Assembly: GCA_964016885.1 (NCBI GenBank) | Contig: OZ024740.1 | Location: 335,482,001-335,546,000, forward strand | DNA: 64,000 nt | Direction of reading: 5' to 3' | Source: Eledone cirrhosa | Taxonomy: Eukaryota | Shown: one piece after another, positions 5,963 through 51,862 of the stretch | Layout of the letters: each line of letters starts with the position of its first letter | Position numbering within the stretch: position 1 is the first letter of the stretch | Translations under genes and position numbers: made by a program | The notes under the pieces: model-generated | What the model saw: the letters and a program-made list of their open reading frames with translations, nothing else | Told to the model about the DNA's origin: nothing | The model's database searches: none

Positions 5963-7296
5963 TAGAAGAAACTGCACATCTAGAAGAAACTGCACTGCCA
6001 CAAACACACCCACTACAAAAATACAATCACCAAAATACCTCCAGCACCACCAACATACTTCTACAGCTAAATCGTCACGGGTCACTAAAAAGGTATTTGG
6101 AGCCCAGAAGAGTATATGTAGTTAATCATTTACCCGACGGAAAAAATGCAGTCAAATCACTCTTAAATCGCATCATTCAACCCTCAAAAACTGGAAAAAC
6201 GCATTGGAATATACAGTTTAATAAACGATGTTTGGGGAAAAATACGGGATGCTCATTGCTGGAACGTTTGAGGAAAGATGGCCTAGGTTCATAGATACCT
6301 ACCAAAGATCTTAAATGTTAGCTTTTCTTATTTTTGTTTTAGCTTCAACTAACGATTCTTTCCCCCAACTCGGGGTGCCTTTCTTCTCCCGGGCTATTAA
6401 ACATAGAAAACGAAAACATTATTTCATTTTAAGAATCGAAACATAATTTAAAGAGCTAAAGGCGATATTCAAAACATTATTTACACTTATTTTCTCTTAT
6501 TTCGAGCTTTCCAAAGTGTGTCACCGATACATATGTCACGAAATTGAATGAAATCTGATCAATTTTTATCGGTATTTCGCTGGGAAGTATATTTGAAGTC
6601 TGAAAACCTTGCGTACAATTAGACACATCACTGGTGACATAACATTTCTTTTTATTAACTACTTCGGTTACGTCTTGCTAACAGCACTTAATTAATGTGC
6701 ACCGAATTTTGTTTTTTATTTTAACATGTGACGCCAATATTGTGAGTTTGTAATGATCTGCTTTAGTCTCAATGAAACCATCTAAAACATTAAACTTGCA
6801 ATGTTTCTACTGCTTAGAACGGATTATCTGCTTCATTTGAACATAGAATATAAAAGCTAACAGAATAGTCATAGTTGACAATGCTGTTATGTGCACCATC
6901 ACAGGACCGATTTACATATAAGTGGAATGAGTCACTAGGGAGTTAAGGACCTAGAAAATGAACACGAAGCATCGAACATCTGACCAACAGCCTGACATTT
7001 TATTCATATAGCCAACTGCCAATCATATTGGACTATGTAATGTATTATATCCCGTGCTTCACGCAATATATTCACAAATTGTAATAAACTCATGTTATAC
7101 ACGCAGAGCCACTTATATAAAAATTCAATATAGATAAATGGATATGTCTACTCACGCACACGAATAGATAGATAGACTGATAGACAGATTGATAAATATA
7201 AGGATAAATAAATATATAGAGAGCGCGGGGGAGATGGAGAGAAAGAGATAGAGTGATAGATAGACAGAAACAGTTAGATAGATAGATAAATAGATA

Positions 7297-8233
7297 TGTT
7301 TCTTTTATTTGCCACCAGGGCATCAAAAGAGGGACAATTACAATGGGGGGGGGGGGAGTTTACAAAACAAGGCGTCCTCAATAAGGAGGAGGCAATAACA
7401 AAATATAAAAATAAAATAAAATATAACAGAATAAAATATATAACAAATTCCTTAATAGAGAGGAGGCACCTTGGGGGGTCGCATACACTCTTTTCCTCGG
7501 GAGCACAGAGAAGGGGTGCTCCCTTGGTCTTTCATCTTCTTCATCTATAGTCTGATGTAGAGTGAAGGCCCATTCACACGGGCCATTCTCGCCACTTTCA
7601 CCCATCTTTCATAAAAATGGCTGGGGTGCAGCACCTCTCTCTCCATCCTGATCCTTCTTCCGAAATGATATCGGAAGAAACGGACCAGTTGTTGGCCAGA
7701 GAGAAAGGTGTCTGACCTCAGTCCTTTCAGACGCGTCCACCATACAACCTCTTTCGCCATGGCTATTACGCACAAAAACACCGCCTCTCCTTCGTTTTTG
7801 AAGAAGGGAGGCGGCTTGATCGTTACAATAGACTCGGTGGTCAACCGGATCGGTCCCACCCTTGACAGCAGTTGTTCGACATAGCCCCACAGATCAGCAA
7901 TGCCCGAGCAGTGTACCAATGCGTGTGCAACGGTTTCCTCGTCGCACACGCATCTGGGACAGATCTTTTTCGAGGGGTGCCTACCCGGGCGCCCGTGTCT
8001 GTAGAGCCTTTCTCGAACGGGCAGAGCCCTTCTGTAGCACTGCCAGGCCAGGGACCTCTGGAAGTTATCCATGGGTCCCGGGCTGAATGTCCTACCGAAC
8101 AGGTTGGCCAGTTCGTCTTCCTCCATGCCTAGGGCTTCTCCGAGGGCGTCGTCGCACCTGCTAACCACCAGCCCTCTATAGAATGACAAGGTGGATTCTT
8201 CACTGACAGTCCGGTCCGCCTGCCAGAGAGCCG
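7297..8233 (-). mobile_element. 5'-truncated Tx1/L1-clade LINE inserted in a (GATA)n tract with a 10-bp TSD
   Basis: ORF 7545-8189 is nearly identical to the C-terminal ~214 aa of ORF2 at 48425-51862 and has the same 3' end (gcaaataaaagaaaca). taaatagata is present at both 7287-7296 and 8234-8243. Confidence 0.95.
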
Positions 8234-8462
<229 letters not shown>

Positions 8463-16656: not shown

Positions 16657-19120
16657 CTATGCTGGGTCAAATATTCTGTTGGCGAAGGATTTAGCCCTTC
16701 TATGTTGACAGCTAAGAGTTACCTCCGTTCTATCGTTAATCGGTAGAGGTCGTGATAGAGTTATGTAATATGCTTCGGTAAGACAGAGGTCAAAAGAGTT
16801 TCTTCGTCCATTGAACGGTTGGGCCCTAGTCAAGATATCCCATGTTAGTGAGTGTTCAATGTTGGTTAATTTAAGGTTTTTAATGAGCCAAGCTAGAGAT
16901 ATCGAACATCTGTTGTTAGGGTTTCGGAAGGAAAAAGAGTGCGCGTTATAGCGTACCTTAAAAGGGTTAGAGGTAGAACCAATATAGGAGCTGGTATGCG
17001 AAGCAGTTTTAACTGTGCACCTATAAACTATATTGGGTGTCAGGCAATGTCCATTTAGTGGGCATGCATTAGGGTAACGGCAGGTCCAGTCACTTCTGCG
17101 GTTAGTGAGAGTAGGGTTGTTTAAACTAAGCGGTTGGTCCGTGCTAGAAGGATTAGATGGGGGAGATGTGCTACTAGAGTAAGTATTGGTGTAGTGGCGT
17201 GGTGTATTTTATGGGGGTGGGGTACCGCGGTGTGGGAGTTATACTGTCTTAGTTTATGATGGTTACTGAATGCGATGTGGCTAGCTAGGTTAGGTGTTGT
17301 GGAGAATGAGATTTTAATGTTGTTTGTAATATCTGTGGTTGGGGGGAAATGTTTAGATAAGATAGAGAAGAAACGTTTAGGGATATTAGTGGCTAGATTA
17401 GATGAGAATGGAGGGTTAAGCCAGGTGATATTTCTAGGCCTATTCCTTCTAGGGTTCTAGTGGAGTTGGTAGGGGCCTTCATAGGGTTATTATTACCTGG
17501 GCATTTGTTATTTGTCATCTCATTGCTCATTTCTATTCTAGGGTTGATTTTTAGTTTGCTACTTGGAGTAGGAAGTAGGCCACTTCCACCATTAAGGTTC
17601 CCTGTATAGGTGCTGTTACTGCTAAAATTCCGGTGAATCTGGCTATATGCTAAGTTATTTCTAATTCTAGTGTTAAGTTTATTATGGTTGTGGTGAAGTG
17701 CTGTGTTATGGCATTTAGGTATGTAGTAAATGGGCTGTTCATAAGCAGATTCAGAAAGAGCCTTATTATAATATGTCACATGGTTTATAAATATCTCCTC
17801 ATTTGCTGATAGCATGGAGATCCAACACGAGATAGATTTGATTACTGCTCTGATGACTGCCGATGGGTGGTTAGAGTGTGGGCTAATATATGTAAGTATT
17901 TCACCTGGTTTATGATAAGGGTAATATAGGTTATTGTTAAGGTTTAGGTTATTGTTAACGTCTAGGAAGTTTACTATTTTGGGCTCGATGGTGATAGAGA
18001 AACCGTTATTTTTAAAGAATCTATGTTATTGTTTTTTGAGCAAGTCAATGCCTCGATTAGTGCAATTGTGGACTGCAAATAGGGCGTCGTCCCTATTTGC
18101 AAGGGTTGGATTTCAGTTCTGATGTTATGTAATAGGTAAATTCCAACTAAATCGGTTATTTGCGCAGAGTCACTTGAGCCCATAGTGATGTCAAAGTTGT
18201 CTGTTCTGTCTTTTCTAGTCCAGAGTGCTCCGTCGAATTCAATGATGGTCTGCCTAGCCATAAGTATGATGTTAATCTCATTATTGGTTATGTCAGAGTT
18301 GGTGCTGGCTAGGGTTAATGCTTTGTTGAGCAGTGCCGGAGTTATTGAAGCGTAATAGCTGTCAATGTCAAATTGGAGGAACCTCATAGATTCCTTGGAC
18401 CTTAGATCGGAGAACCATCTAATGAGTTGGCCGGTGTTGAACCACAGCTTGTAGGTGATATCATCTCGTAGCCCATGGATGATCCTATCAAGGATGTTCT
18501 TACTGATACGACCCAAGTCGGATGTGGTTGGGCTTATAAGTCTAATAGATGGGTTCTGTATAAAGTTTGGCTTCTGATCATTGACAGAAAACCTTGGGGT
18601 TGTACGTACATAAGGGTGGGTAAATCTATCCATATGCAAGCCCTTAATCAAAGCCTGGAGGGTATAGTTTTTTTTTATATTTATAGTTTTTATTAAGTTC
18701 CTTAAGAAGGAAAGAATTGTAAGTTTCAGGAGTCATGGTGTATAGATTTTTAGTTTTGTCACACATAACATTTAAGAGGTGGCTATATTTACATTTTTTT
18801 ATAGTTGTTGCTAATTTTGTGAGGAAATTATTCTTGTGTCTATAATGCTTTTTGAATTTAATGCTCCTGACGAAGTTAAATAGATCTTTCTCAAAAGGGT
18901 CCAGCAGGATGTTGTGTTGAGTGTTCTTGCAGGTGGTAAATCCATATCTGTTTGCTGTACTTCCGACGTCAGCAGCACCCGCACGGTCGAGGTGGAAGGC
19001 CTTCCATCGTATTCTTCGGATGAAAGAGTTGTCACTCTGTATTAGGAGTTTGAGGCATGTCTTCCTGTCCGGGATAGGAATGGACTTAAATGATATCCTG
19101 AGTTCCTGCTTGCTCAACAT
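16657..19120 (-). pseudogene. PLE-A polyprotein (RT plus C-terminal GIY-YIG endonuclease), frameshifted; resembles Hydra-clade PLEs
   Basis: Motifs FIRRIRWKAF, CDKTKNLY, IRLISPTTSDLGRISK, FDIDSYY, ITMGSSDSAQITDLVGIYLL, NRDD, TCRYPNACPLNGHCL, IVYRC..SYIGSTSNPFKVRY and DLCLTE..CQH. The clade assignment is from recall. Confidence 0.85.
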
Positions 19121-19587
19121 GGTGACTTCTAACAGTAAGTAGCTCAACTACGGGAGCTCAAGTATAAACAGTTCAAGAGTAACCAATGTTAAAGAGAGAG
19201 ATGGAGATAGGAGAGGAGATAGGAGAGAAGAGAGATTGGTGAATTAGTTAGAAGCCAAAGCGTAAAGGCATGTGCTCAATGTGCAATTGTCTCTCAATTA
19301 AACAATTAAAAAATTAGAACTTCTTAACTATAAACTACCCACAATTTTTAATTTCTCGAGGAGTTATTTACCCTGAAACCACCCTCTAATTAGTAAGGTA
19401 AATATGTCCATTGGCGGCCATCGTGTTACCCATAGGCAGAACTCACACAATGCAGCCTCGACAGAAGAATACTGCTCGACTATGGCAGACAATAGATATA
19501 ACCAGGACACCATAGTGAAATACCAATATATGGAACATTACATTCATGTAACATTCTTTCCTTATTTTAATTTATATTCCTTTTGAA

Positions 19588-20802: not shown

Positions 20803-20866
20803 ATTTTATTATATATATTTCAGAGGTACTGTGCTGTTTCCTCAGTACGTCCTCATCAGATAAAAT
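20803..20866 (-). ncRNA. Type I hammerhead ribozyme
   Basis: Minus strand: attttat CTGATGA ggacgtactg..cagtacctct GAAA tatat ATA ataaaat. Has a 7-bp helix I and palindromic ATATATAT helix III. Confidence 0.8.
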
Positions 20867-21252
20867 AAACTGATGTCTGACATACCTCAACTTTCCTGAT
20901 AGTTCAATTCCAGTCTTGGCAGTGATTAGTTATGACAACACTCAATATTTATATAACATGACAAACTACATATAATTGAGATGGTGAGTAGGAAAACGTG
21001 TAGAAAAAATAAAATAAATACATATATAGATAAGTAAAATACATAAACACATAAGTACATAACTGTTAAATATTTAAATAATTAAATACGTAAATATCCG
21101 TATTAGAGAATAAAACTAATGAGAGAGAGAGCTAAATAGAGGAGAAAAGGAAAAGATAGAGAGATGAAGATAAACACGAAGAAAGGGAGATATAGATAGT
21201 ATAAAATAATTACATAAGGAAAAGAAGAATAGTGGTATATGATGCGTGACCG

Positions 21253-22435
21253 CAAATTTCTGATCCGGATTAGAAAAAGAATGTTTATGATTGGAAAATC
21301 TCAGTTTAAAGTTCGATGAAGTTGCACCTATGTAGTTATAGGTAATATTATTATTTGCTTTAATGGTACATTTATATACTAAATTCTTATCAAGGCAGTT
21401 ATTTTGCAAAGGGCATTCTGATTTTCTTCTACAGTTACAGTTCGATTTCATGCTATTTCTATAATCGATTCTGTTCGCATTATCATTGTTAATATATGTA
21501 GATTTTCTACTGTAAGTGCTTAAATTAATGTTATTGTTATTCTCTGTAACTATAGTATTATTATTATTAATATTGTCATTATCGCTAATTATCTGTTGGT
21601 TATATCTAAGAATTCTGCTATTTATGTTTGCAATATTTTGAGCCATATTGAGTAAGATAGTTTAACTGTGTGTCTATTGAAGATAGAGTAATGTTTATGT
21701 AATCTAGGGAAACATTTATCTAATGCTTTAAAAAATAATTCTGCTAAGGGTGTTATAATAGCTAAAGATGCTGGTGGGGCATACCAAATAGTTGTTTCTA
21801 CATTTGGCACAAGGCCAGCAATTATTCCAGTGTATAACTGGCATACCAAATAATAGATCTAGTTCTAATTTTTTTCCCCGATTTATTCACGAAATTGGTA
21901 TTTTTATTTATATTTATATTATTTTTATTTTTAAGGCTGCTTTATTTATATTATTCCTATTATGAATATTTAGTTTATAATTACAATTATTATTTTCTAC
22001 ATATTCAATATTATTTTTATTTCCTGCTTTATGCAACGCTTCATTATAATATACATCTTTAATATTAAAAATGGATTTGTTAGCAGATAATTTAGTTAAA
22101 CGTTGTTGCACACTATTGACTATTGCATTTTTAACACATATAGGATGATTGGAATAAAAACTAACATGATTTAGGTTTTCATTGGGTTTATGGAAGTGCT
22201 AATATAGGCCTGAGTTTAAATTGAGGGTTACGTCTAGGAAGTTAACTAATTTACTGTTACTTTCTACTTCTAATTTCAGGTCGTAATTTTTAAAGAATTC
22301 TATGATTGTTTTCTTTACTCTATTTAGTTCACTATTGCTATGTTTTACTACAGTAAATAATATATCATCTCTATATAAACCACCGGTAATCTCCGGCAGC
22401 TTTCTATAAATTTGCAACAACATTTCAAGCATCAT
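21253..22435 (-). pseudogene. PLE RT C-terminus/thumb plus truncated GIY-YIG (Hydra-like)
   Basis: GGLYRDD, VNFLDVTLNLNSG, WYAPP, IFNRHTVKLSYS, CNCRRKSECPLQNNCL, VYKC..YIGATSSNFKLRFSNHKHSF. Confidence 0.85.
21791..21839 (-). mobile_element. 5'-truncated SINE tail inserted in the PLE-B ORF with a 13-bp TSD
   Basis: ggcataccaaata at 21778-21790 and 21840-21852 flanks the SINE 3' tail (ggcacaaggccagcaatt). Confidence 0.8.
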
Positions 22436-23629: not shown

Positions 23630-23693
23630 ATTTTATCTGATGAGGACGTACTGAGGAAACAGAACAGTACCTCTGAAATGTATATAATAAAAT
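23630..23693 (+). ncRNA. Type I hammerhead ribozyme
   Basis: attttat CTGATGA ggacgtactg-loop-cagtacctct GAAA tgtat ATA ataaaat. Confidence 0.8.
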
Positions 23694-24930: not shown

Positions 24931-25372
24931 CTATCCGTTAGGGTTTAATGTGGGGCTGTAATACAGGAAAGCTTTGTTCAATTTATGTTTACAAGCCGAA
25001 ATTGCCTCAGATTTTTTGTTTAATATGTCGTCTTTGGCGTAGGGTATTTCCAGGGCCTCAGTGGCGCAGAGGTCACACGGTCTTTTATTTCCGTTATACG
25101 ATCTAGTCCTAGCTAGGATCTCCCAGTGTAACTTATATTGGGTGTGGTTGTCTTTTAGACTCCATATATAAGCTGAAAGTGACGTCATATTCCTTCTTAA
25201 AGGGTAACGAAAAGAATGGGTATGCTTGTAAAGACGCTGCTTGAATCTATTGACGGTTAACCCTATGTAAGCCCTACGGTACGTGGGTATTTCAACCTTA
25301 CATTTGTAGACAATGTTACTAGAGAGGCATTTCCCGGATAAGGGCAGTCAACCCGATTCCTACAATTACAGT
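24931..25372 (-). pseudogene. PLE-C GIY-YIG endonuclease fragment (5'-truncated; 3' UTR probably extends toward ~23750)
   Basis: CNCRNRVDCP..CLSSNIVYKCKV..YIGLTVNRFKQRLYKH..TSLSAYIWSLK..CDLCATE..LNKKSE..CKH. Begins at a (TA)n tract. Confidence 0.85.
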
Positions 25373-29193: not shown

Positions 29194-29259
29194 ATTTTAT
29201 TATACATATTTCAGAGGTACTTGAATGAAGTGTAATAGTACGTCCTCATCAGATAAAAT
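29194..29259 (-). ncRNA. Type I hammerhead ribozyme
   Basis: attttat CTGATGA ggacgtact..agtacctct GAAA tatgt ATA ataaaat. Confidence 0.8.
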
Positions 29260-30640: not shown

Positions 30641-30706
30641 ATTTTATCTGATGAGGACGTACTATTGAACTTGATTCAAGTACCTCTGAAATATGTATAA
30701 TAAAAT
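30641..30706 (+). ncRNA. Type I hammerhead ribozyme
   Basis: attttat CTGATGA ggacgtactattgaacttgattcaagtacctct GAAA tatgt ATA ataaaat. Confidence 0.8.
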
Positions 30707-30845: not shown

Positions 30846-31398
<553 letters not shown>

Positions 31399-31475
31399 TT
31401 TATAGTGAGGTTGCTTGGATGCGTCCATGAGCGGTAGCCAGTAGAGCACTCTATGCTCCTTCGGAGCAGATTAAG

Positions 31476-32119
31476 ATAATATGGAAAACGAAGAATCAGT
31501 GATGCATCGGAACACAATTTATTACGTATTACAATTGTTTCTCCGGCGAACAGCTCGGAGTGCGGTCTGTTTGTGGATCGAACCTGACTCTGGATTCGCA
31601 AGTTCCTCAAATACGTCTAGTGATTTCGAAGCAAATCCTCTTTCTGTTGGACTCCGACCCTTTTAATTTCTGTCATCTGCCATCATCCTGTTTGCGCGGC
31701 CCCACGATTGGTTTCGAGACGTCATCTGTATGTTTGACCATTCAAATCTTCCCACTGACCATTTCCATTCAGGCCGTGAGCTTTCACTCACCTTAAATCT
31801 GTCGCCAGAATTACTGCTTTGTGTGCGAGGTGTTATGAATTGCCTTGCCATTCCCTTGCTTACCCGTCGCCCGACACATATACACTCACACACACGTGTT
31901 CTCACACATATACAGACATTCCGAGCTCCTGATCGCATACTTATCTGTCTCGAAGGGTCGGAGTTCAACAGAAAGAGGATTTGCTTCGAAATCACTAGAC
32001 GTATCTGAGGAACTTGCGAATCCAGAGTCAGGTTCGATCCACAAACAGATCGCTCCTCAAGCTTTTCGCCGGAGAAACAATTGTAATACGTAATAAATTG
32101 TGTTCTGATGCAGCACTGA
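31476..32119. mobile_element. Non-coding element with ~185-bp inverted arms, each carrying an extended HHR
   Basis: Inverted repeat ~31476-31662 / 31953-32119 adjoining (TA)n. A diverged relative lies at ~45680-45900. Confidence 0.85.
31999..32091 (+). ncRNA. Type I hammerhead with a ~60-nt helix-II domain (left-arm copy at 31524-31616 minus has C3U)
   Basis: acgtat CTGAGGA acttgcgaa...ttcgccgga GAAAC aatt GTA atacgt. Perfect 6-bp helix I. Confidence 0.75.
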
Positions 32120-32132
32120 TTCTTCGTTTTCC

Positions 32133-32174
<42 letters not shown>

Positions 32175-32222
32175 AGACGAAAAATAAGAAAATTATAAAA
32201 TTAACTTACTTACTAAAATATC

Positions 32223-32304
32223 ACTTCCAACTAATTAGTTTCTGGAATGGAGTAAATATATTTTCCGAAGAAGATATGGAAAAGCATTCCGTCGTCAGGA
32301 AAGT
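32223..32304 (-). ncRNA. Type I hammerhead, monomer 1
   Basis: actttc CTGACGA cggaatg...cattcca GAAAC taatta GTT ggaagt. Confidence 0.8.
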
Positions 32305-32747
32305 CTATTCTCATGTAAGTTTCCAGGCAAAGCGAGGACTCTGGAAACTTATTAAAAAATAATTATTCAGTGGATAGGAAATAGCAAAGCGTGGACTGAA
32401 TTCCTAGCCATTGATAAAATCACTGCCTCTGCGTCTGTGGCAAATTCAAAAAGAATTGAACACGTGACATCGAGGTCAATCAGTGGAAAGTGGTTTGTTA
32501 ATAAGACAGCGGCCTGCCTACAACCGTAGCAGCAGTCATGGCCAATATTGCTCGACAAATAATTTGGAGATAATAATAAAGAATTCATATCTAGTAACAT
32601 ATATATACATACAGATGTATATCAATGCTAGCAAATATATAGGTTTTGTCTTAATAACATTGCGGTTCAATGCATGGGGTTGCAGAACAAAAATATAAGA
32701 GACGTAAGATAAGAAAATTATAAAATTAACTTACTTACTAAAATATC

Positions 32748-32829
32748 ACTTCCAACTAATTAGTTTCTGGAATGGAGTAAATATATTTTCCGAAGAAGAT
32801 ATGGAAAAGCATTCCGTCGTCAGGAAAGT
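32748..32829 (-). ncRNA. Type I hammerhead, monomer 2
   Basis: Identical motif exactly 525 bp from the first. Confidence 0.8.
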
Positions 32830-33265
32830 CTATTCTCATGTAAGTTTCCAGGCAAAGTGAGGACTCTGGAAACTTATTAAAAAATAATTATTCAGTGGAT
32901 AGGAAATAGCAAAGCGTGGACTGAATTCCTAGCCATTGATAAAATCACTGCCTCTGCGTCTGTGGCAAATTCAAAAAGAATCGAACACGTGACATTGAGG
33001 TCAATCAGTTGAAAGTGGTTTGTTAATAAGACAGCGGCCTGCCTACAACCGTAGCAGCAGTCATGGCCAATATTGCTCGACAAATAATTTGGAGATAATA
33101 ATAAAGAATTCATATCTAGTAACATATATATACATACGCAGAGGCAGTGATTTTATCAATGGCTAGGAATTCAGTCCAAGCTTTGCTATTTCCTATCCAC
33201 TGAATAATTATTTTTTAATAAGTTTCCAGAGTCCTCGCTTTGCCTGGAAACTTACATGAGAATAG

Positions 33266-33347
33266 ACTTTCCTGACGACGGAATGCTTTTCCATATCTTC
33301 TTCGGAAAATATATTTACTCCATTCCAGAAACTAATTAGTTGGAAGT
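33266..33347 (+). ncRNA. Type I hammerhead, inverted arm
   Basis: actttc CTGACGA c ggaatg ... cattcc a GAAAC taatta GTT ggaagt. Palindromic AACTAATTAGTT helix III. Confidence 0.8.
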
Positions 33348-33565
33348 GATATTTTAGTAAGTAAGTTAATTTTATAATTTTCTTATTTTACGTCTCTTAT
33401 ATTATTGTTCTGCAACCCCATGCATTGAACCACAATGTTATTAAGACAAAACCTATATATTTGCTAGCATTGATATGCATCTGTATGTATATATATGTTA
33501 CTAGATATGAATTCTTTATTATATATATATATATAGTTATGTAATAAACAACATAAGGCAATTAT

Positions 33566-33623
33566 TCCATTTACCAGTGGTTTCTTAAAAGCAAAAAATG
33601 TTGCTTTCAATCATCAGAATGAA
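33566..33623 (-). ncRNA. Type I hammerhead ribozyme
   Basis: ttcatt CTGATGA ttgaaagcaa..ttgcttttaa GAAAC cactg GTA aatgga. 6-bp helix I, 10-bp helix II and 3-bp helix III. Confidence 0.85.
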
Positions 33624-33782
33624 AAAATCTTGGTCTATTTATTGAATTGGATTCTTAAAAAACAAAAATGCAGTCTATATGAAAGTGAGGCTGGAGAATG
33701 AAGAAGGAAAGGAAAAATAAAATAAAAACACACATGCAAACATACACACACACACACACACGATTATATACATCCACATATT

Positions 33783-33814
<32 letters not shown>

Positions 33815-33994
33815 CATACACACACACATACACACACACATATACACATATATATGTGTATATATATATATACATACACATACATACATACACACATACA
33901 TACATACACACATAAATATCAAATATCAACATATCCATACATACACATACATATATACAACCACACACATATATATACACATATATATATAGAA

Positions 33995-34033
<39 letters not shown>

Positions 34034-34341
34034 TACACATTCACATACATAGCCATAAACACATACATATACGTACATACATACATGCATACATATGTAT
34101 GCATGTACATATGTGTGTATGTATGTGTTTGTATGTACGTGTGTATATACGTATGATTGTGTGTATGTATGTATGTACGTATATGTATGTGTGTATGGCT
34201 ATGTATGTGAATGTGTATGTATTTATGTGTGTATGTATGTATGTGTGTATGTATGTGTATGTATATATATATACACATATATATGTGTATATGTGTGTGT
34301 ATATGTGTGTGTATATGTGTGTGTATATGTGTGTGTGTATG

Positions 34342-34375
<34 letters not shown>

Positions 34376-34392
34376 AGTGGATGTATATAATC

Positions 34393-34424
<32 letters not shown>

Positions 34425-34540
34425 TTGCATGTGTGTTTTTATTTTATTTTTCCTTTCCTTCTTCATTCTCCAGCCTCACTTTCATATAGACTGCATTTTT
34501 GTTTTTTAAGAATCCAATTCAATAAATAGACCAGTATTTT

Positions 34541-34598
34541 TTCATTCTGATGATTGAAAGCAAAATTTTTTGCCTTTAAGAAAGCACTGGTAAATGGA
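34541..34598 (+). ncRNA. Type I hammerhead ribozyme (helix III mismatch)
   Basis: ttcatt CTGATGA ttgaaagcaaaa..ttttgcctttaa GAAAG cactg GTA aatgga. Confidence 0.7.
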
Positions 34599-34710
34599 AT
34601 AATTGCCTTATGTTGTTTATTACATACCTATTAAGCTCTGTTACCTACATAGAGCACTCTTTCTTCCTGGACTTTCCGACGGAATTACTTCATTTACACA
34701 TATATTCACA

Positions 34711-34779
<69 letters not shown>

Positions 34780-35965: not shown

Positions 35966-36785
35966 TTAAACCAGCCATCTCATTTCGCTTCTCTCTAATC
36001 GGTTATTTATTTGCGGTTGCAGGCGTTTGATAAAAAGCGCTTCCTTGATACGTAACGTGCCGACGTTTCTTTCAGTCGCTAGAATTGTGACAATTGGCCT
36101 TCCGTCTTTGTTTCCGCATTTGTCTATGTGTTTCCGGAAAGACGAGGCCCTGGTTTTAGTGTGTTCCTTGATCCGGATGTGCAAAGGTCGGATTGTGCTA
36201 CCTATGTAGTATTGGTTGCACCTGTCACATTCTATCTTATACACGACGTATGTGTGTAGGCAACAGTTCGCATGGCGTATCGGGCAGTCTCTGAGGGATC
36301 ATGCGTCAGTAGATTTCCCGGGTTTCTTGGAGAGGCATCTTCGCAGGGAGGGGCCCGAGTGGGCCAGGTGGATGTCGAGGCCCTCCCTCCGTATAGCCTT
36401 GCGGATAGCGTTGGTGGTATTCTCGCCCAGGTGTGGCATTTTAAGGAAGCACTTGCCTTGGGTGCCTCTCTGTCTCTTGTGTCTGGTGTCTCCTATTCTG
36501 TCTGTGATCGAGGTAGGGTACCCGTTCGTCTCCAGCACCTCGAGGAATCGCTTGGTATGAGTGACACCACTCGCGGGATCGCTGCATCTGTTTTTGATTC
36601 GCGCGATCTCGTTCGTGGTGTATCCTCTTTTAGCACTGTTAGAGAGGGCGGACTTGTAGTCAACGAACAGGTCCCTGCAGGCTGCCTTTCGGTAGAAGTT
36701 GCAGTGGATCCTTCCCTGTTCCGCGATGTTGATTCGGAAGTCGAGGAGGGCAATTGACCCGTCTTCGTTGGGGTGTTCAACACTG
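35966..36785 (-). pseudogene. Inverted duplicate of the PLE-D thumb and GIY-YIG region
   Basis: ORFs 36299-36538 and 35966-36244 match the plus-strand copy and lack its frameshift. Confidence 0.92.
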
Positions 36786-38912
36786 TGGGAAACAACAACT
36801 TAACAACCGCCACCGCCGCATCCACCAATACCTCAACGATGCGACGCACCTGGTCACCGACCTAAGCGGCACTCTAACGAGCGACGAGCTAAAACTCCTA
36901 CACCTCGGACCCATGTTCATCGTCTCACAACGTCTCGACGACAGACTCAAACTCAACATCGAGGCCAACTTTTGTCGAACCGCTTACCAACTTAAATGGG
37001 TGACTGCCATCAACAGCGCCACAGAAAATAACAGCGCCCACGCAACCCACCCCAAGTTTCCCACTTACCACCCCGACAACCCACTCCACCCCCCACCCAC
37101 CAACCACGAACTCGACACTAAACTCATCAGGCTAAAACACTCCATCTCGGATATACTTCACAAACACACACACACACGCACAACACATAACCTCACCAAA
37201 TCTCAACTCACCACTCTCTCCAACCTAAAATCGAAGAACCTCATCTATCTCCCCTCCGACAAGGGAAAAGAATTCTGCGTCATCAGCAGAGAGGCCTACA
37301 ACACCCTGGCCCTCCAACACCTTGACGATGACAACCTCTACTCCAAGGTCACGGGAATCACTCCCGCGCAGATAGAAGAGCACATCAACGCCGCCTGGAC
37401 CAACATCTGCGACCGGCGGAAGCTCCCGAAGAAGCTGAGATACAACCTCCTCACGAGGAACAGCAGACTACTCGCCTCCTACCACCTCGTGAAAACACAC
37501 AAACAGGGACCCGACCTGAAGATCAGGCCCATCGTATCGAGCGTGGATGGACCACTCTACAAAATTTCATGGCTCCTAGCCAGAATACTCAAACCCATCT
37601 TAGACACCTTGCCGGGACACGTTAACAGCTCCGAGGAGGTGTTGAAGCACCTGCATCAAATGGATCCCGACACCTGAAGGAATAACAGATATGCCTTCAG
37701 CCTTGATGTAGTCGCTCTCTACACCTCGGTCCCGGCACTCCCGGCCGTCAATATACTGATGGAACGCGTCCAATCCACCGACCTACAATGCTTCGGGCTC
37801 ACCACCACTGACATCCACCAACTCCTATCCATCGTCGTCGACAACACCTACTTCGGATTCCTTGACCAAACATACCAACAAACCTCGGGATTGCCCATGG
37901 GATCAAGCCTATCAGGTGTGCTAGCGATCGCTTACATGGATAACCTCGAACGCAAGGCACTCAACGCCTGCCACCCCAACGCCGTAGCCTTTTTCTCAAG
38001 GTACGTGGACGATATCCTCATCCTCACATCTTCCCAAGACACGGCGAACAGAATCTATGAGACGTTCAACAACACGGACGAGAACATTGATTTCAGTGTT
38101 GAACACCCCAACGAAGACGGGTCACTTGCCCTCCTCGACTTCCGAATCAACATCACGGAACAGGGAAGGATCCACTGCAACTTCTACCGAAAGGCAGCTT
38201 GCAGGGACCTGTTCGTTGACTACAACTCCGCCCTCCCTAACAGTGCCAAAAGAGGATACATCACGAACGAGATCGCGCGAATCAAAAACAGATGCAGCGA
38301 TCCCGCGAGTGGTGTCACTCATACCAAGCGATTCCTCGAGGTGCTGGAGACGAACGGGTACCCTACCTCGATCACAGACAGAATAGGAGACACCAGACAC
38401 AAGAGACAGAGAGGCACCCAAGGCAAGTGTTTCCTTAAAATGCCACACCTGGGCGAGAATACCACCAACCTATCCGCAAGGCTATACGGAGGGAGGGTCT
38501 CGACATCCACCTGGCCCACTCGGGCCCCTCCCTGCGAAGATGCCTATCCAAGAAACCCGTGAAATCTACTGACGCATGATCCCTCAGAGACTGCCCGATA
38601 CGCCATGCGAACTGTTGCCTACACACATACGTCGTGTATAAGATAGAATGTGACAGGTGCAACCAATACTACATAGGTAGCACAATCCGACCTTTGCACA
38701 TCCGGATCAAGGAACACACTAAAACCAGGGCCTCGTCTTTCCGGAAACACATAGACAAATGCGGAATCAAAGACGGAAGGCCCATTGTCACAATTCTAGC
38801 GACTGAAAGAAACGTCGGCACGTTACGTATCAAGGAAGCGCTTTTTATCAAACGCCTGCAACCGCAAATATACAACCGATTAGAGAGAAGCGAAATGAGA
38901 TGGCTGGTTTAA
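36786..38912 (+). pseudogene. PLE-D RT plus GIY-YIG polyprotein, 5'-truncated, with two in-frame TGA and one frameshift (~38470); Nematis/Poseidon-like
   Basis: PSDKG, KTHK..IRPIVSS, SLDVVALYTSVP, GLPMGSSLSGVLA, RYVDD, LLDFRI, VYKIECDRCNQYYIGSTIRPLHIRIKEH, IKEALFI. Confidence 0.92.
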
Positions 38913-45202: not shown

Positions 45203-45760
45203 CTTTGTATGCGTGCGTGGACCTGTATGTGATTATGCGCATATTTGTAAGAGTGTATATGAACCAGTGTGTGTGTGTACAAGCACGCACTGTATGGAAA
45301 GTTCTTGTTTGTGTGTTTGTGTGTATATATATATATGTATGTGTGTTTGCGAGCGAGTGTGTATCTGTGCCTGTATATATGGACACGTGTGTGTATGTGT
45401 GTGTGCATGGGAGGAAAAGGGAAAAAAAGGGGGGGGTCTATGTATATGTCTGTACGTGTTTGTGTATACAGGTATATATACGCGTATGCATGTGTGTGCG
45501 CCTGTGTGTGTGTGTGTGTGTTGATGTATGTGGGCATGTAGGCAGGCGTCTGTGTATGCGTATGTTTATAGGTTTATATGTTCTCCTTTAATGTGTGATT
45601 ATAGCGGGAGTCTATGTGTACGACTGTCGTTATCTATGTGATTGTGAGTGTGTGTGTGTGAGCGTGTGTGTGTGTGGACGTGTGAACTACCAAACTACCG
45701 AAGATGATGAAGTTTTTGACGCTAAGACCCTAGTGAAAGATTTTGCTCCGAAATCATTTG

Positions 45761-45852
45761 ACGTGTCCGTCGAACCTGCGGATCCAGATTCAGGCAGATC
45801 CACACAATGATCGTGTCTCGAGCTGTCCGCCGGCGAAACAATTGTAACACAC
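45761..45852 (+). ncRNA. Degenerate extended hammerhead homologous to 31999-32091
   Basis: acgtgt ccgtcga acctgcgga...tccgccggc GAAAC aatt GTA acac. The core is mutated but the helices show compensatory changes. Confidence 0.5.
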
Positions 45853-45918
45853 AATAAATTGAGTTCAGATGCATCACTGATTTTTCGTTTTATATTATAT
45901 ATATATATTGTTTAATTC

Positions 45919-46013
<95 letters not shown>

Positions 46014-46536: not shown

Positions 46537-48400
46537 ATGGCTGAAGCATCTTCACCATCAATCAAAGAAGGAAAGGGGAAGTCATACTCATAGCTTCCCC
46601 CTGCCACTGTCACAGCAGCAGATGCCAAAGGCAGAGGTCAGAGAGAGGAAGAATTGTCTTCACCTGTTGACCGACCACTAGATGTAGCCACAACTACACA
46701 AGAATTTGAAAACAACAACAACAATAACAACAACAACGACAACAACAGCAACAATAAAGACAACAAAAACAACAACAACACAAACGTCACAAGTATCCAC
46801 ACACGAAACGAGAAAGACAACAACAACAACAAAGATGAAAACAACTCAAACGACGAGAAACAAAACAATACTAATATCCAAAACGAAAACAAAATATCTT
46901 TTGCACAAACGGCTAAATTATCAGTCGCTTATGTGCTGGAAGATATTTCAAAAGCAAAAGAAATGCTGGAAAAAGCCAAGAAATATGTGTCTTTTGGCGA
47001 AAACGGTTCGTTTTCTATACATTCACCTCCGGTGCTAAAAAGACAGACGGAATTACGAACTGTCGTATTCCGAACAATTTTAAATAAAACAAAGAAACCA
47101 GCGCAACCATCTCAAGCGGAAATTCAGTTAGTCTTGAAAGACGCGATGAGAGACATCACTTTTATACAAAAGGATAAACTCTATGGGAGTTTATCCATAT
47201 TGATGAAAGACGAATTGGCGGCAAAAAAATACTCTGTGTCGCCAATTCGGTCCACACACTACACCTTCTTCCCCACCTACATGGGTAAAAAAACCCAGAG
47301 GATATGGATAACCACCATCACCCCAAACATAAACTACTGGTGGTTCCTAACCGGTTTCCTCAATTTAGACGAGGACAACCTCATTTCAATAGGGAAGGCA
47401 TCCGGCGACGCGTTCAGTGGAACGAGCCTCGAAGTTCTGACCCAAATAAGGCCAGAACGCATCGCCTAAATCCCTGAGCGCGTCATGCTGGATGACCGTA
47501 CCCACCTCAACATTATTGTGGAGGGTAGGCGTCCCTCCTGTTACCTCTGTGGCAATAGAGGTCACCTGAGGGCTGCCTGTCCCCAGCTCACACAGAAAAA
47601 AACACTGCTACCAACACTAACACCACCCCAACTACAACAACAAAAACAACCACAACAACAACAAAAACCAACAACCCCACCACCACCACCACAACAACAA
47701 CAACAACAAACACGTGAAAAAATAACACAGAATACTGTTCCACCCAATCCCTCCCCACCCAAAACAAATACAAAAACACGCACACCGCAAACACTACCAG
47801 AAAACATACCCCTCCCACCCAACAAGGAAGACGAACATCTTTCGTCGCAAGACGAAAAAGATCCCTTCCAACAAGTAAAAAGAAAGAAGAGGAGACGCAC
47901 CACAGACACAAATGTTAACTTTAACCCCCCCCCCCCCCCCCCAAGAGAACACAAACTACACACAAACCACCCCTCCCTGTCACACAACACTAACTGCTAC
48001 ACAAAAAAAGACCTTACAATACACATACATGAACACAGACAACAAGGAATTACGGAAAACAATTTCAGCAAACCCTTCGGTCCAAACTGAAGGGCCAAAC
48101 TTTATAACTGCTGTCGGACTACCTCATTTGAAAATGATAAAAGTCCCAATGCACTTGTACAAAACACTGAAAATAAATTTCACGGAGGACGTGGGCCCCC
48201 CCTGCGCCAAACCAATCAACCGCGTCCTCCTAAAAAATTTCACCCCCCTACCCCACCCAGACACCCACTCAACGACAAACACCCCAACCCCACAACACAC
48301 CGATGCCCTTTCACTTCCACAAACCAAAACCCCACCAAACAACCCATCCCCAACCAGCATGGAAATTGAGCGGCCCGTTTCCCGGGACGCAGAGAGGTAA
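46537..48400 (+). pseudogene. LINE ORF1 (gag-like, CCHC zinc knuckle), two premature stops and a frameshift in a poly-C run
   Basis: ATG at 46537 is in frame with ORFs 46654 and 47485. Contains CYLCGNRGHLRAAC, SFAQ and FQQVKRKKRR. The frame shifts at the C-run ~47925-47942. Confidence 0.8.
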
Positions 48401-48424
48401 GTGCCTTTCCTCTTTACCACCAAC

Positions 48425-51400
48425 ATGGCTGTGCTAAGAGTAGGGTGTCTAAATGCGCGTGGCCTGGGCTCGTCTTGGAAGCAAGCAATGCTTCTAAATG
48501 ACCTCAGGTCACAATCTATAAATGTAATGGTTATCTGCGAGGCCCGGATCAGCAGCATGCGACAGCTAGCCCCCACCTTTGACGACTTTGAGATGTACGC
48601 ATCTCTCTGTCAGCCCGGAGGTGGGGGTGGGGTTGTCGTTCTGCTGCAAAAACATATGGGCCTTGCAACACAGATAGTTCACTTGGACCCAGGGGGTCGA
48701 CTGGTGGTGCTGGACCTTGGCAGTGGTGAAGGTAGAGCCTTTAGGCTGATAGCCGCATATGCCCCTTTTGGGACAGAGCGGCCCGACTTTTTCCAGCGTC
48801 TGGAGTCTTTTCTAGGGACGTCCCGTTCCCTGCTTTTAGTGGGGGATTGGAATGGTATCCTGGATGCACGTTGGGACTATGCAGGGGCATGTCCCGATAG
48901 AGAAGGGTGCAACAGCCTCAAGGGGTTACTCGGCCGATTTGACCTGGCCGATAGATTTCGACTAGATTTTCCGACGGTGCCAACCTGGTCTTGGTCAAAT
49001 CGCAGCGGATCATCTAGATCGTACCTAGATAGATTTTTAGTTAGAAATAAGGACAGGGACTTTTTAAGCTGTCCAGAAATGCTCATGGTTGGCTATTCAG
49101 ACCACAAGTTGGTGACCTGCATGGTCAACCTTGATAGAACGCATAGACAGGGCCCCGGTTACTGGAAGCTCAACTTGTCCTTGCCGGCAAGTAGAGCCTA
49201 CAGGAATCGGATTAGTACGTTAGTTAAGGAACGGTTGACTGGAGCGATCGTCAGCAGCAGGTGGTGGGTATCTCTAAAGAGAGAGATTAGAGTAGTCTCG
49301 ATAGAATTTAGTAAGGTTCTAGCTGCGGATAGGAATAGGAAGGAAAGGGAGCTAATAGATAGAGTAGAAGAGGCAATTAGAAGCGGCGACGTGGCCAGAG
49401 TGCTAGCGTCGAGAACGGCTTTGAGCCAGTTTTTCGACGCGAAGCACGAAGGCTGCGTTGTCCGAAGTAAAATACGTGCTCTAGGGAACGAGGGGACCAA
49501 AGCTGTTAGCTGGGCCCGCGTGACAGAGGCCAACAGTGGAACTAAATCCACCATCCGGTCTTTGCGAGACCTGGATGGACGGGCGATTCTTGAGCCTAAG
49601 CAGATGTGTGAGGCCTTTCAAAGGCACTTTGCCCGACTGTTCGGGAGGGGCGGGGAGCCGGTTGGGAACGTGGACTTCGGTCCATACCTCGACGGCCTGC
49701 CGCGCCTCTCGGACAGGGAGGCGAAGTCCTGCGAGGAGCCGATTTCGGCCGCTGAGATAGAGGACGTGCTGAGCCAATGCGGCAAACGCAAATCCCCGGG
49801 TCTCGATGGTCTTCCTTACGAATTATATCTAGCTATGCCGGACTTGTTCCCCGATCTCCTCGAGGCGGTCTACTGCAACTGGCAACAGAACGGGAGAATT
49901 CCCTGTACTGTGACCAAGGGCGTAGTCACGCTAGTGAGGAAGGACGAGAACAAGGGGGACGAAATAAGTAACATCAGGCCCATAACTCTGCTAAATACAG
50001 AGTTACAGATTTTGGCCAAGGTGCTAGCAAAGAGGTTGGCGCTTGTCGTGGGGAACCTGGTGGGAGATGCGCAGATATGCGCTATCCCGTCCAGGTCCAT
50101 CCATAACAACCTCCACCTCATGCGATACATCATAGAAAGGGTTGGGAACGAACCCGGCTTTGGTGGGGCTCTGATCAACTTGGATCAATCTAAGGCGTTC
50201 GATAGGGTCGACCATGGTTACCTGGATGCGGTGCTAGCGGCGGCAGGCTTCGGACCCGTTTTCAGGGGCTGGATCACTGCTATGCACAGCAGCCGCATCT
50301 GCTCTAGGGTCAAGGTGAACGGCTACCTCTCGGAGCCGTTCAAAATCGCGCGGTCCATCCGACAAGGGTGCCCTCCCTCCTCCCTTCTGTATGTGTTGAC
50401 TCTCGAGCCACTACTGCGGAAGTTGGAGTTGTTGCAGGGCATCCCTTTGGAACCGGGATTGCGGAAAGCGGTGTCAGCCTACGCCGATGATGTGACAGTA
50501 ATGGTGTCGACGGCCTCCGAAATCGAGGCGGTCGGCACCTTACTGGAGGAGTACGAAAAGTTCACAGGGGCTAAGCTGAACCGGGACAAGTCGATCGGTT
50601 TGCAACTCGGCACGTGGAGGGGCAGACCGATGCCCTCCGATGGCGTCTTCGGACGCTGGACGGAGGGCCCGGTGAAGTTGCTCGGGGTCTGGTTCGGACC
50701 GGACCTCCAGGTGGAGAAAAACTGGGCGGAGGTTACGAACAGGGTGTTTGCACTGACCCAGAAGTGGGCCAATTGCAAACTATCCCTGAAAGGTCGGGCG
50801 GAGGTGGCGAACACTTATATAGCGTCCGTCATCTACTACCGCCTGACCGTAGTGCCCTGCCCAAGGGAAACCCTCACCAAGATGGAGCGCGCGCTCTTCC
50901 AATTCCTTTGGAAGAGGCGGGCTCCTATGGTGAGGAGATCCATCTGCTGTCAACACCCTTCGAAAGGAGGGCTGGGGATGCCGTGGCTAATGATGCGTAA
51001 ACACGCATTAAGGCTACGGCACCTCTACGTATTCCTCACCGGACAACCGGTGTGGGCCTCGTTTGTGAGACGAACCTTTCCCAGACTCGTCTCACTCACC
51101 GAGCTGCAATCCTGGGTCAAGCAAAGACCGAGAAAACTGGGCGCCTGGCACACTGAGTGTGCCCAGGCGCTCACCGCCCTCTGGCAGGCGGATCCGGTTA
51201 TCAGTGGAGACTCGACCGCAACATTCTATAGAGGGCTGGTACGCAGCAGGTGCGACGACGCCCTCGGAGAAGCCCTAGACATGGAGGAGGACGAATTGGC
51301 CAGCCTGTTCGGTAGGACATTCAGCCCGGGACCTATGGACAACTTCCAGAAGTCCCTGGCCTGGCAGTGCTACCGAGGGGCTTTACCCGTTCGAGAAAGG

Positions 51401-51862
51401 CTCTACAGACACGGGCGCCCGGGTAGGGACCCCGCCAAAAAGATCTGTCCCAGATGCGTGTGCGACGAGGAAACCGTTGCACACGCATTGGTACACTGCT
51501 CGGGCGTAGCCGATCTGTGGGGCTATGTCGAACAACTGCTGTCAAGGGTGGGACCGATCCGGTTGACCACCGAGTCTATTGTAATGATCAAGCCGCCTCC
51601 CCCCTTCAAAGATGAAGCAGAGGCGGTGTTTCTGTGCGTAATAGCCATGGCGAAAGAGGTTGTATGGTGGACGCGTCTGAAAGGACTGAGGTCAGGCACC
51701 TTTCTCTCTGGCCAACAACTGGTCCGTTTCTTCCGATATCATTTCGGAAGAAGGATCAGGATGGAGAGAGAGGTGCTGCACCCCAGTCGTTTTTATGAAA
51801 GGTGGGTGAAAGTGGCGAGAATGGCCCGTGTGAATGGGCCTTCTCTTTACATAAGCCTGTAG
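48425..51862 (+). CDS. LINE ORF2: APE endonuclease, reverse transcriptase and C-terminal cysteine/histidine motif (intact, ~1145 aa)
   Basis: LNARGL, ICEAR, GDWN, SYLDRF, SDHK, GYWKLN, KSPGLDG, RPITLLN, LDQSKAFDRVDH, SIRQGCP, AYADD, GGLG, CPRC..ETVAHALVHC. Confidence 0.97.
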   Translation: MAVLRVGCLNARGLGSSWKQAMLLNDLRSQSINVMVICEARISSMRQLAPTFDDFEMYASLCQPGGGGGVVVLLQKHMGLATQIVHLDPGGRLVVLDLGSGEGRAFRLIAAYAPFGTERPDFFQRLESFLGTSRSLLLVGDWNGILDARWDYAGACPDREGCNSLKGLLGRFDLADRFRLDFPTVPTWSWSNRSGSSRSYLDRFLVRNKDRDFLSCPEMLMVGYSDHKLVTCMVNLDRTHRQGPGYWKLNLSLPASRAYRNRISTLVKERLTGAIVSSRWWVSLKREIRVVSIEFSKVLAADRNRKERELIDRVEEAIRSGDVARVLASRTALSQFFDAKHEGCVVRSKIRALGNEGTKAVSWARVTEANSGTKSTIRSLRDLDGRAILEPKQMCEAFQRHFARLFGRGGEPVGNVDFGPYLDGLPRLSDREAKSCEEPISAAEIEDVLSQCGKRKSPGLDGLPYELYLAMPDLFPDLLEAVYCNWQQNGRIPCTVTKGVVTLVRKDENKGDEISNIRPITLLNTELQILAKVLAKRLALVVGNLVGDAQICAIPSRSIHNNLHLMRYIIERVGNEPGFGGALINLDQSKAFDRVDHGYLDAVLAAAGFGPVFRGWITAMHSSRICSRVKVNGYLSEPFKIARSIRQGCPPSSLLYVLTLEPLLRKLELLQGIPLEPGLRKAVSAYADDVTVMVSTASEIEAVGTLLEEYEKFTGAKLNRDKSIGLQLGTWRGRPMPSDGVFGRWTEGPVKLLGVWFGPDLQVEKNWAEVTNRVFALTQKWANCKLSLKGRAEVANTYIASVIYYRLTVVPCPRETLTKMERALFQFLWKRRAPMVRRSICCQHPSKGGLGMPWLMMRKHALRLRHLYVFLTGQPVWASFVRRTFPRLVSLTELQSWVKQRPRKLGAWHTECAQALTALWQADPVISGDSTATFYRGLVRSRCDDALGEALDMEEDELASLFGRTFSPGPMDNFQKSLAWQCYRGALPVRERLYRHGRPGRDPAKKICPRCVCDEETVAHALVHCSGVADLWGYVEQLLSRVGPIRLTTESIVMIKPPPPFKDEAEAVFLCVIAMAKEVVWWTRLKGLRSGTFLSGQQLVRFFRYHFGRRIRMEREVLHPSRFYERWVKVARMARVNGPSLYISL

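What the first reader, a model, noticed from the sequence alone, without database searches (positions are those of the whole stretch)
32171..33523. 525-bp tandem HHR monomer: candidate retrozyme that could generate a circular RNA
Seen: two near-identical head-to-tail units exactly 525 bp apart, each with an intact CUGACGA/GAAAC/GUU hammerhead and a perfect palindromic helix III (AACUAAUUAGUU). A third, inverted copy spans the unit junction, and there is no meaningful ORF. Established: retrozymes are tandem HHR repeats whose transcripts are cut to monomers that circularise, and palindromic helix III allows dimeric cleavage. Inference: a minus-strand transcript would release a 525-nt monomer, and the 1.85-mer insertion fits reverse transcription around a circular template.
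Basis: partly seen in the sequence, partly recalled or inferred. Interest (0 to 1): 0.8.

Follow-up and report, generated by a model that had tools for sequence, protein, structure and literature searches.

The report
Penelope-mobilised hammerhead repeat in animal DNA
A 525-base non-coding repeat with a predicted self-cutting hammerhead RNA sits as 1.85 head-to-tail copies plus an inverted copy between two TA microsatellites, the layout known from Penelope-like retrotransposons, so it is likely a new member of the known animal 'retrozymes', whose RNA would be cut and closed into circles.

Summary
There is a 970-bp direct arm (period 525) and a 391-bp inverted arm, carrying three type I hammerhead motifs with a palindromic helix III and no conserved ORF. 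Reads from other samples show a many-copy family whose best-supported ends are not permuted. They fall at two fixed sites, 61 and 181 nt past the predicted cut, each next to (TA)n, and these are this insertion's two outer ends. Partial tandem, inverted 5'-truncated arm, one-sided tail and (TA)n target are the published Penelope-like element (PLE) footprint. The hammerhead resembles those of Hydra-clade PLEs, remnants of which lie in the window. Best reading: a non-autonomous, PLE-mobilised non-LTR retrozyme (about 85%). Both arms cross the predicted cut site, so the template was longer than a cut linear monomer. A circle (about 45%) and an uncut multimer (about 33%) both fit, so the 1.85-mer is not evidence for a circle. 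The hammerhead fold is not the lowest-energy fold of this copy, and cleavage and circles are untested. It is a known kind; its value is the clear insertion anatomy.

The parts
32133..32172 (.). (TA)n target, left side; its last ATATA overlaps the element end
   Evidence: sequence
32168..33137 (-). Direct arm, 970 bp = 1.85 units, hammerhead sense on the minus strand; 3' end at 32168, 5' break at 33137
32229..32753 (-). Predicted 525-nt monomer between the two cut sites; 34.7% GC; circular fold z -5.7
32223..32304 (-). Type I hammerhead motif, copy 1 (C3 at 32298, U17 at 32229)
32748..32829 (-). Type I hammerhead motif, copy 2 (C3 at 32823, U17 at 32754)
32573..32692 (-). 120-nt stretch between the family's two fixed ends (the 'tail'); predicted to fold into two hairpins
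   Evidence: loose ends at 32573 and 32693; fold
33098..33137 (-). Last 40 bp of the direct arm, identical to the outermost 40 bp of the inverted arm (33483-33522)
33132..33137 (.). Inversion junction with 6-bp overlap, 5 of 6 matching (microhomology)
33132..33522 (+). Inverted, 5'-truncated arm, 391 bp, ending 181 nt past its predicted cut; includes the tail at 33403-33522
33266..33347 (+). Type I hammerhead motif, copy 3 (C3 at 33272, U17 at 33341)
33520..33535 (.). (TA)n target, right side
   Evidence: sequence

Best explanation
This is a 525-bp non-coding, many-copy repeat with a hammerhead motif in each unit, likely a non-autonomous passenger (non-LTR retrozyme) of a Penelope-like element, whose RNA would be cut by paired hammerheads into a 525-nt monomer that would be closed into a circle and copied into TA microsatellites. 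Shown: the repeat, the motifs, the family, its two fixed ends beside (TA)n, and that the three arms share one source. Inferred steps: (1) a tandem copy is transcribed on the minus strand; (2) two hammerheads pair through the palindromic helix III and cut, probably slowly or with protein help; (3) a host ligase closes the monomer; (4) a PLE protein, likely of the Hydra clade, nicks both strands of a (TA)n run and starts cDNA at two fixed internal sites, 61 and 181 nt past the cut; (5) one cDNA runs 970 nt and the other 391 nt, both through the cut site, and they join by microhomology, leaving the direct and inverted arms. I put the identity (steps 4-5 on a longer-than-unit template) at about 0.85; the score given here is for the whole chain with a circular template.
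For: The anatomy matches the PLE footprint of partial tandem, inverted 5'-truncated copy, one-sided tail and (TA)n bias (PMC8557442 passages). Family: 3962 reads of X10 and 1552 contigs of X1 lay on one unit and cover all 30 bins. The best-supported loose ends in X1 are TA runs before 32693 (13 contigs) and before 32573 (3 contigs), this insertion's two ends, and a contig of X7 also starts at 32573. A PLE protein cut and extended both strands of AT-rich DNA and started at two fixed internal sites that define the tail (PMC11167929). Of 40 variant rows shown, 8 fall in the hammerhead: 5 in loop II, 1 at the free N7 (236 of 643 reads), 1 turning the helix I U.G into C-G (365 of 634), 1 in helix II, and none in the invariant core or helix III. 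By my count of File S2, 15 of 25 Hydra-clade families have an unpaired base on both sides of helix II and 16 of 25 start helix III with ACU; 26 of 27 listed Hydra families target (TA)n. Hydra-type RWK, DKT and CxCX5C-like motifs occur in PLE remnants at 16660-19147 and 21119-21661. The circular monomer folds at z -5.7, against a median of -0.14 and a minimum of -2.7 in 32 background windows. A double hammerhead is 6-7 kcal/mol better than two single ones.
Against: In this copy the single-hammerhead fold lies 3-9 kcal/mol above the free fold, with helix I and II pair probabilities of 0.04 or less. The double form is still 7-16 kcal/mol above the free fold. A helix II variant in 193 of 631 reads breaks a G-C pair unless a hidden row compensates; 120 variant rows and 199 loose-end rows were not shown. 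PLE hammerheads cleave poorly in vitro (PMC4209133), and 8 of 9 tested Xenopus retrozyme dimers did not cleave (preprint). In Anolis PAc, hammerhead mutants did not affect insertion and no reads ended at the cut. On one circle the first cDNA would pass the second start site already in its first lap. No listed contig bridges 32572/32573 by the tool's 31-letter rule. No autonomous partner with matching ends was found in the window. Rfam gives no hammerhead match.
Confidence: 0.45

Rival explanations
1. Same non-autonomous PLE passenger, but copied from an uncut linear multimer. Both nicked strands prime on one RNA of at least 2.5 units (twin priming), and the hammerhead plays no part in insertion.
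For: The direct arm stops 40 nt past the second start site of its second lap, exactly where the inverted arm begins, so both arms fit one continuous 1321-nt path; the chance of that is about 40 in 525. Unprocessed RNA was the main substrate for PAc. The hammerhead fold is disfavoured in this copy.
Against: 5' truncation would shorten arrays at each round unless something regenerates more-than-unit length (the argument for circles in PMC4209133). The hammerhead looks maintained across the family and the monomer is strongly self-paired.
Confidence: 0.33
2. The arms are stacked, 5'-truncated 3' ends (pLTRs) of an autonomous PLE, with no independent 525-bp element.
For: Most PLE hammerheads are found as single motifs from truncated copies, some as opposite-strand pairs 100-700 bp apart (PMC4209133). 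PLE remnants are common in the window.
Against: All three arms map onto one closed 525-bp cycle. No well-supported exit into other sequence was listed for X1, whose share running on unlike the stretch was 0, and X10 depth stays near 500-770 around the non-tail part of the cycle apart from dips at AATT sites. No coding remnant was seen.
Confidence: 0.1
3. A monomeric PLE derivative inserted once and was then duplicated and inverted locally by slippage or recombination, as in satellite birth.
For: The arms share alleles that are a minority in the family (32697, 32806, 32940). Local amplification is proposed in the 2026 preprint.
Against: Both outer ends coincide with the family's fixed ends beside (TA)n. 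Both neighbours show the same inverted-arm-plus-tail layout with unrelated sequence. At least 158 X10 reads from another sample cover 32562, next to the point where a monomer would end.
Confidence: 0.07
4. Assembly or read artefact (fold-back chimera or collapsed haplotypes).
For: PLE structures trouble assemblies. The locus itself was not checked against reads, only one unit.
Against: The three arms carry 11 differences, each private to one arm or at the junction. At the 5 sites listed in the read table the family majority (82-99% of X10 reads) sides against the private letter, as expected from decay after insertion. A fold-back would be identical and would not end at family ends.
Confidence: 0.03

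Closest known systems
Metazoan non-LTR retrozymes (Cervera and de la Pena 2020, PMC7229834; parts 2-4 of 6 read)
   Same: Non-coding, low-GC tandem unit with a type I hammerhead per unit, a self-paired monomer and many copies; PLEs are proposed there as mobilisers. An axolotl family has a U.U mismatch at the base of helix II and cleaves better as a dimer.
   Different: 525 nt against about 170-400 nt. The hammerhead is PLE-type with a 35-nt loop II. The inverted arm, fixed double ends, tail and (TA)n target are not in that main text ('inverted', 'tail' and 'microsatellite' occur 0 times; supplement unreadable). Cleavage and circles were shown there and are not shown here.
Retrozymes as non-autonomous PLE derivatives (Li, Clavereau and Pollet 2026, bioRxiv 10.64898/2026.07.22.740005; parts 1-3 of 5 read)
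   Same: Meets their working definition of two consecutive units with complete hammerheads; 525 bp is inside their 51-972 bp range.
   Different: Their link to PLEs rests on co-occurrence and pLTR similarity in Xenopus; here it rests on insertion anatomy, and no sequence link to a partner was found.
Hydra-clade PLEs (Craig et al. 2021, PMC8557442; passages, section 11, supplement parts 2 and 52 and search passages)
   Same: (TA)n target; hammerhead near the 3' end with unpaired bases on both sides of helix II and an ACU..AGU helix III; one family is listed with an inverted 5'-truncated copy.
   Different: No RT/GIY-YIG frame. The mismatch is C.A, not U.U (C.A is listed for PLE-X1_cBra, a non-Hydra element). 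The tail is 120 nt rather than 30-40.
Anolis Poseidon element PAc (Frangieh et al. 2024, PMC11167929; parts 1-2 of 4 read)
   Same: Two fixed internal start sites downstream of the hammerhead cut that define the tail; AT-rich target; both strands cut and extended.
   Different: PAc is autonomous and its sites are 30-40 nt apart; its hammerhead needed protein and was dispensable for insertion in vitro.

Membership tests
Metazoan non-LTR retrozyme | Type I hammerhead motif in each unit | tested here: met
   3 of 3 arms; 5 hits against 0.005 by chance. Helix II base is a C.A mismatch; no Rfam match.
Metazoan non-LTR retrozyme | Head-to-tail tandem units | tested here: met
   1.85 units at this locus. 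At other loci only indirect: the cycle is fully covered, but no listed record bridges 32573 by 31 letters on each side.
Metazoan non-LTR retrozyme | Non-coding | tested here: met
Metazoan non-LTR retrozyme | GC below 50% and a highly self-paired monomer | tested here: met
   34.7% GC, 63% paired, z -5.7
Metazoan non-LTR retrozyme | Many genomic copies | tested here: met
   3962 reads, most at 85-95% identity, mean depth 644, 0.018% of letters read in X10
Metazoan non-LTR retrozyme | Unit size | tested here: inconclusive
   525 is outside 170-400 nt but inside 51-972 bp
Metazoan non-LTR retrozyme | No LTR, PBS or PPT; canonical loop I-loop II contacts | not tested
   No scan for PBS/PPT or tertiary contacts was run
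Metazoan non-LTR retrozyme | Self-cleavage, and linear and circular monomer RNA in vivo | not testable with these tools
   Needs RNA data or a bench assay
PLE-type insertion | Partial tandem with an adjacent inverted 5'-truncated copy | tested here: met
PLE-type insertion | Two fixed 3' ends with a one-sided tail | tested here: met
   13 and 3 contigs in X1; the tail is 120 nt, longer than the published 30-40
PLE-type insertion | (TA)n target | tested here: met
Autonomous PLE | RT plus GIY-YIG reading frame | tested here: not met
Passenger of a Hydra-clade PLE | Ends or hammerhead shared in sequence with an autonomous partner | tested here: inconclusive
   Motif style fits; no matching partner in the window; genome not held

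The most novel reading that the evidence does not exclude
The insertion is a fossil of twin priming on a circular RNA. A dimeric Hydra-type PLE protein nicked both strands of a TA run and primed at two fixed sites of one 525-nt hammerhead-made circle; the first cDNA went nearly twice round and stopped on meeting the second. The family, hundreds of copies shared with other species, would then record how retrozymes integrate and why PLEs leave inverted arms and tails.
Probability: 0.2. Interest if true: 0.65.

Novelty: new member of a known kind. Interest (0 to 1): 0.38.

Why it matters
Retrozyme mobilisation by PLEs is a standing hypothesis based on co-occurrence and sequence similarity. This family carries the PLE insertion footprint on a non-coding closed cycle, with mapped start sites. 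It offers a genome-scale test of two open points: whether the template is a circle or an uncut multimer, and whether inverted arms come from twin priming. The element itself is an ordinary kind of animal repeat, and nothing here shows cutting or circles.

Tried and rejected
Expression: no RNA holder listed among 12 runs, so no verdict. Of 9 holders I laid 3 (X1, X4, X7) plus 1 added raw run (X10); the others are no evidence. X1 may be the assembly's own sample. X4 (59 contigs) and X7 (2 contigs) carry other organism labels, but related species and carry-over cannot be told apart. X10 molecule ends (32564, 32582, 32758, 32889/32890, 32971) and the loose end at 32719 sit at or within 4 bases of AATT sites and have mixed loose letters. 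They come from the library, and 32758 is not the ribozyme cut. The 436 reads joining 32995 to 32471 only cross my chosen wrap point and do not prove tandems. Whole genome not held. A 29-nt hammerhead pattern had 0 matches in JGI metagenomes and 0 in IMG/VR. Host not identified: two protein searches and one cluster look-up named no close relative; a cephalopod is only my impression from the microsatellite load. The Atlas placed the 17977-18732 fragment near eukaryotic RT-like clusters without a clade. The 77-aa ORF was rejected. A B-box-like motif at 32978-32986 (consensus recalled) was rejected because two of its letters differ in about 70% of reads. The tblastx of the unit against the window showed low-complexity hits and one weak match at 34613-34723 that DNA alignment did not support (output was cut). 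One search folded a monomer offset by one base; one search has the right ends. Literature: a search for Penelope + twin priming + inverted listed 2 papers, both on mammalian genomes and not read; retrozyme + inverted + Penelope + target-primed listed only PMC8557442; hammerhead + octopus listed no retrozyme paper; one search was uninformative; one search listed one engineering paper, not read. The library lacks most subscription papers. The supplements of PMC7229834 and of the preprint, and file 1 of PMC4209133, were not seen and may show similar insertions.

Full report
Verdict. The repeat and its hammerheads are real. It is most likely a non-coding passenger of a Penelope-like element (PLE), that is an animal non-LTR retrozyme.

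Observation. The direct arm runs 32168-33137 with period 525 and 6 differences in 445 bp; the inverted arm 33132-33522 equals 32963-32573 at 98%. Three identical type I hammerhead motifs have U17 at 32229 and 32754 (minus strand) and 33341 (plus strand). Helix I is 6 bp, helix II 6 bp with a 35-nt loop, and helix III 3 bp inside a 12-nt palindrome. The pattern scored 5 hits in the window against 0.005 in 200 shuffles. Rfam reported no hammerhead family. There is an extra C after A9 and an extra A before G12. The longest ATG frame (77 aa) is matched by 125 of 2000 shuffles, has no Pfam hit, and has a stop in 365 of 533 family reads.

Setting. The window is microsatellite-rich eukaryotic DNA with LINE and PLE remnants. 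I take the host to be an animal from these elements; it was not identified. Both outer ends merge into (TA)n through AT overlaps, and the arms meet at a 6-bp overlap. Craig et al. describe this layout for PLEs: partial tandems, an inverted 5'-truncated copy at the 5' end, a tail at one end, microsatellite targets (PMC8557442 passages). The two neighbouring inserts are unrelated in sequence but built the same way, each with hammerheads, inverted arms and a one-sided tail of about 70 nt.

Family. No genome was held, so I laid 4 of 12 listed runs on one unit, 32471-32995. X10 (raw reads, same species label, another study) gave 3962 reads at mean depth 644, or 0.018% of the letters read. That would be about 350 units per Gb if the library were even, which it is not. 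X1 gave 1552 contigs, X4 59 and X7 2. The best-supported loose end in X1 is a TA run before 32693 (13 contigs); another TA run stands before 32573 (3 contigs); 199 rows were hidden. These are this insertion's two ends, 61 and 181 nt past the predicted cut. Copies are therefore not randomly permuted. This matches the Anolis PLE, which starts reverse transcription at two fixed internal sites that define the tail, and cuts and extends both strands (PMC11167929). No strong exit into other sequence was listed. Closure of the cycle at other loci is supported only indirectly: 158 reads cover 32562 and contigs overlap across 32573, but none listed bridges it by 31 letters on each side.

One source, then decay. 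The arms share letters that are a minority in the family (for example 32940, where 569 of 715 reads differ). Their 11 differences are private or junctional; at the 5 sites in the read table the family sides against the private letter. This argues against an assembly artefact and against independent insertions.

Is the ribozyme maintained? Of 40 variant rows shown (120 hidden), 8 fall in the motif: 5 in loop II, one at N7, one making the helix I wobble a C-G pair, and one breaking a helix II pair in 193 of 631 reads with its partner not shown. None falls in the invariant core or helix III; X10 samples the cut site poorly. The base after A9 and the palindrome are known PLE traits (PMC4209133, parts 1-2 of 4 and supplement part), although an A before GAAA appears only once in about 56 rows there. 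In Hydra-clade PLEs, by my count, 15 of 25 families have an unpaired base on both sides of helix II, 16 of 25 begin helix III with ACU, and 26 of 27 target (TA)n. Hydra-type motifs occur in remnants in this window. This makes Hydra the likely mobiliser, by resemblance only. Against efficient cutting: the hammerhead fold of this copy is 3-9 kcal/mol above the free fold; pairing two hammerheads gains 6-7 kcal/mol but stays above it. Published PLE hammerheads cut poorly, and 8 of 9 Xenopus dimers did not cut. The review PMC6155905 (passages) gives the dimer mechanism.

Template. A cDNA started at +61 or +181 on a cut linear monomer would run off after that many bases, yet the arms cross the cut site twice and once. 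The template was thus a circle, an uncut multimer, or monomers joined by template jumps (inference). For the circle: the monomer folds far better than background (z -5.7; background minimum -2.7 in 32 windows), known retrozymes form circles, and circles regenerate more-than-unit length. In the predicted circle the 3' strand of helix I pairs elsewhere and the hammerhead fold costs 7 kcal/mol, which would protect it from re-cutting. For the multimer: PAc used unprocessed RNA, and the direct arm ends 40 nt past the second start site of its second lap, where the inverted arm begins. That suggests twin priming on one 1321-nt path, a coincidence with a chance near 8%. Twin priming is a LINE-1 model that I recall; my search found no paper applying it to PLEs. 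I put the circle at 0.45 and the multimer at 0.33.

Comparison and novelty. It works like a PLE passenger and meets the sequence criteria for a non-LTR retrozyme; the defining RNA criteria could not be tested. It is larger than the 170-400 nt of Cervera and de la Pena but within the range of the 2026 preprint. The insertion anatomy is not in those main texts, but non-autonomous head-to-tail PLE derivatives are known. Earlier notes of this scan report similar repeats in other genomes; I did not test them. Score: new member of a known kind, interest 0.38.

Noticed in passing
window 31405-32139: Separate PLE-type insert: inverted arms 31476-31662 and 31953-32139, hammerhead at +32005 (U-for-C3 mutant at -31610) with a palindromic helix III and a long loop II, one-sided tail of about 70 nt; a 78% copy lies at 45742-45945.
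   Followed up: partly
window 33533-34705: Third PLE-type insert: inverted arms 33533-33761 and 34403-34631 around a microsatellite, hammerhead at -33617 whose helix III (ACCA-N-UGGU) matches that listed for Hydra-1_oBim, tail of about 70 nt.
   Followed up: partly
window 31089-31140: Another type I hammerhead-like motif at +31096 with an A.A mismatch at the base of helix II; four unrelated motifs in 31000-34700 all have A before GAAA.
   Followed up: no
window 20810-20859, 23637-23686, 29201-29252, 30648-30699: Four copies of a further hammerhead family with an AT-rich helix I; the one at -20859 lies about 260 nt downstream of the GIY-YIG remnant 21116-21661.
   Followed up: no
window 16657-19147, 21116-21661, 24931-25347 (minus strand): Broken Hydra-type PLE frames (RWK, DKT, CxCX5C-like, YIG motifs); Pfam found nothing on them.
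   Followed up: partly
window 35966-38912: PLE with RT and GIY-YIG (one stop near 37675) and an inverted 5'-truncated copy at 35966-36799; my scans found no hammerhead near its 3' end.
   Followed up: partly
window 46594-51862: LINE with an open 1153-aa endonuclease-RT frame at 48401-51862 and an upstream frame broken by a stop; decayed copies near 4877-6121 and 7545-8312.
   Followed up: partly
window 31440-31452 and 34648-34660: The tails of the two neighbouring inserts share an 11-of-13 match around a short palindrome; possibly a shared start signal, possibly chance.
   Followed up: no
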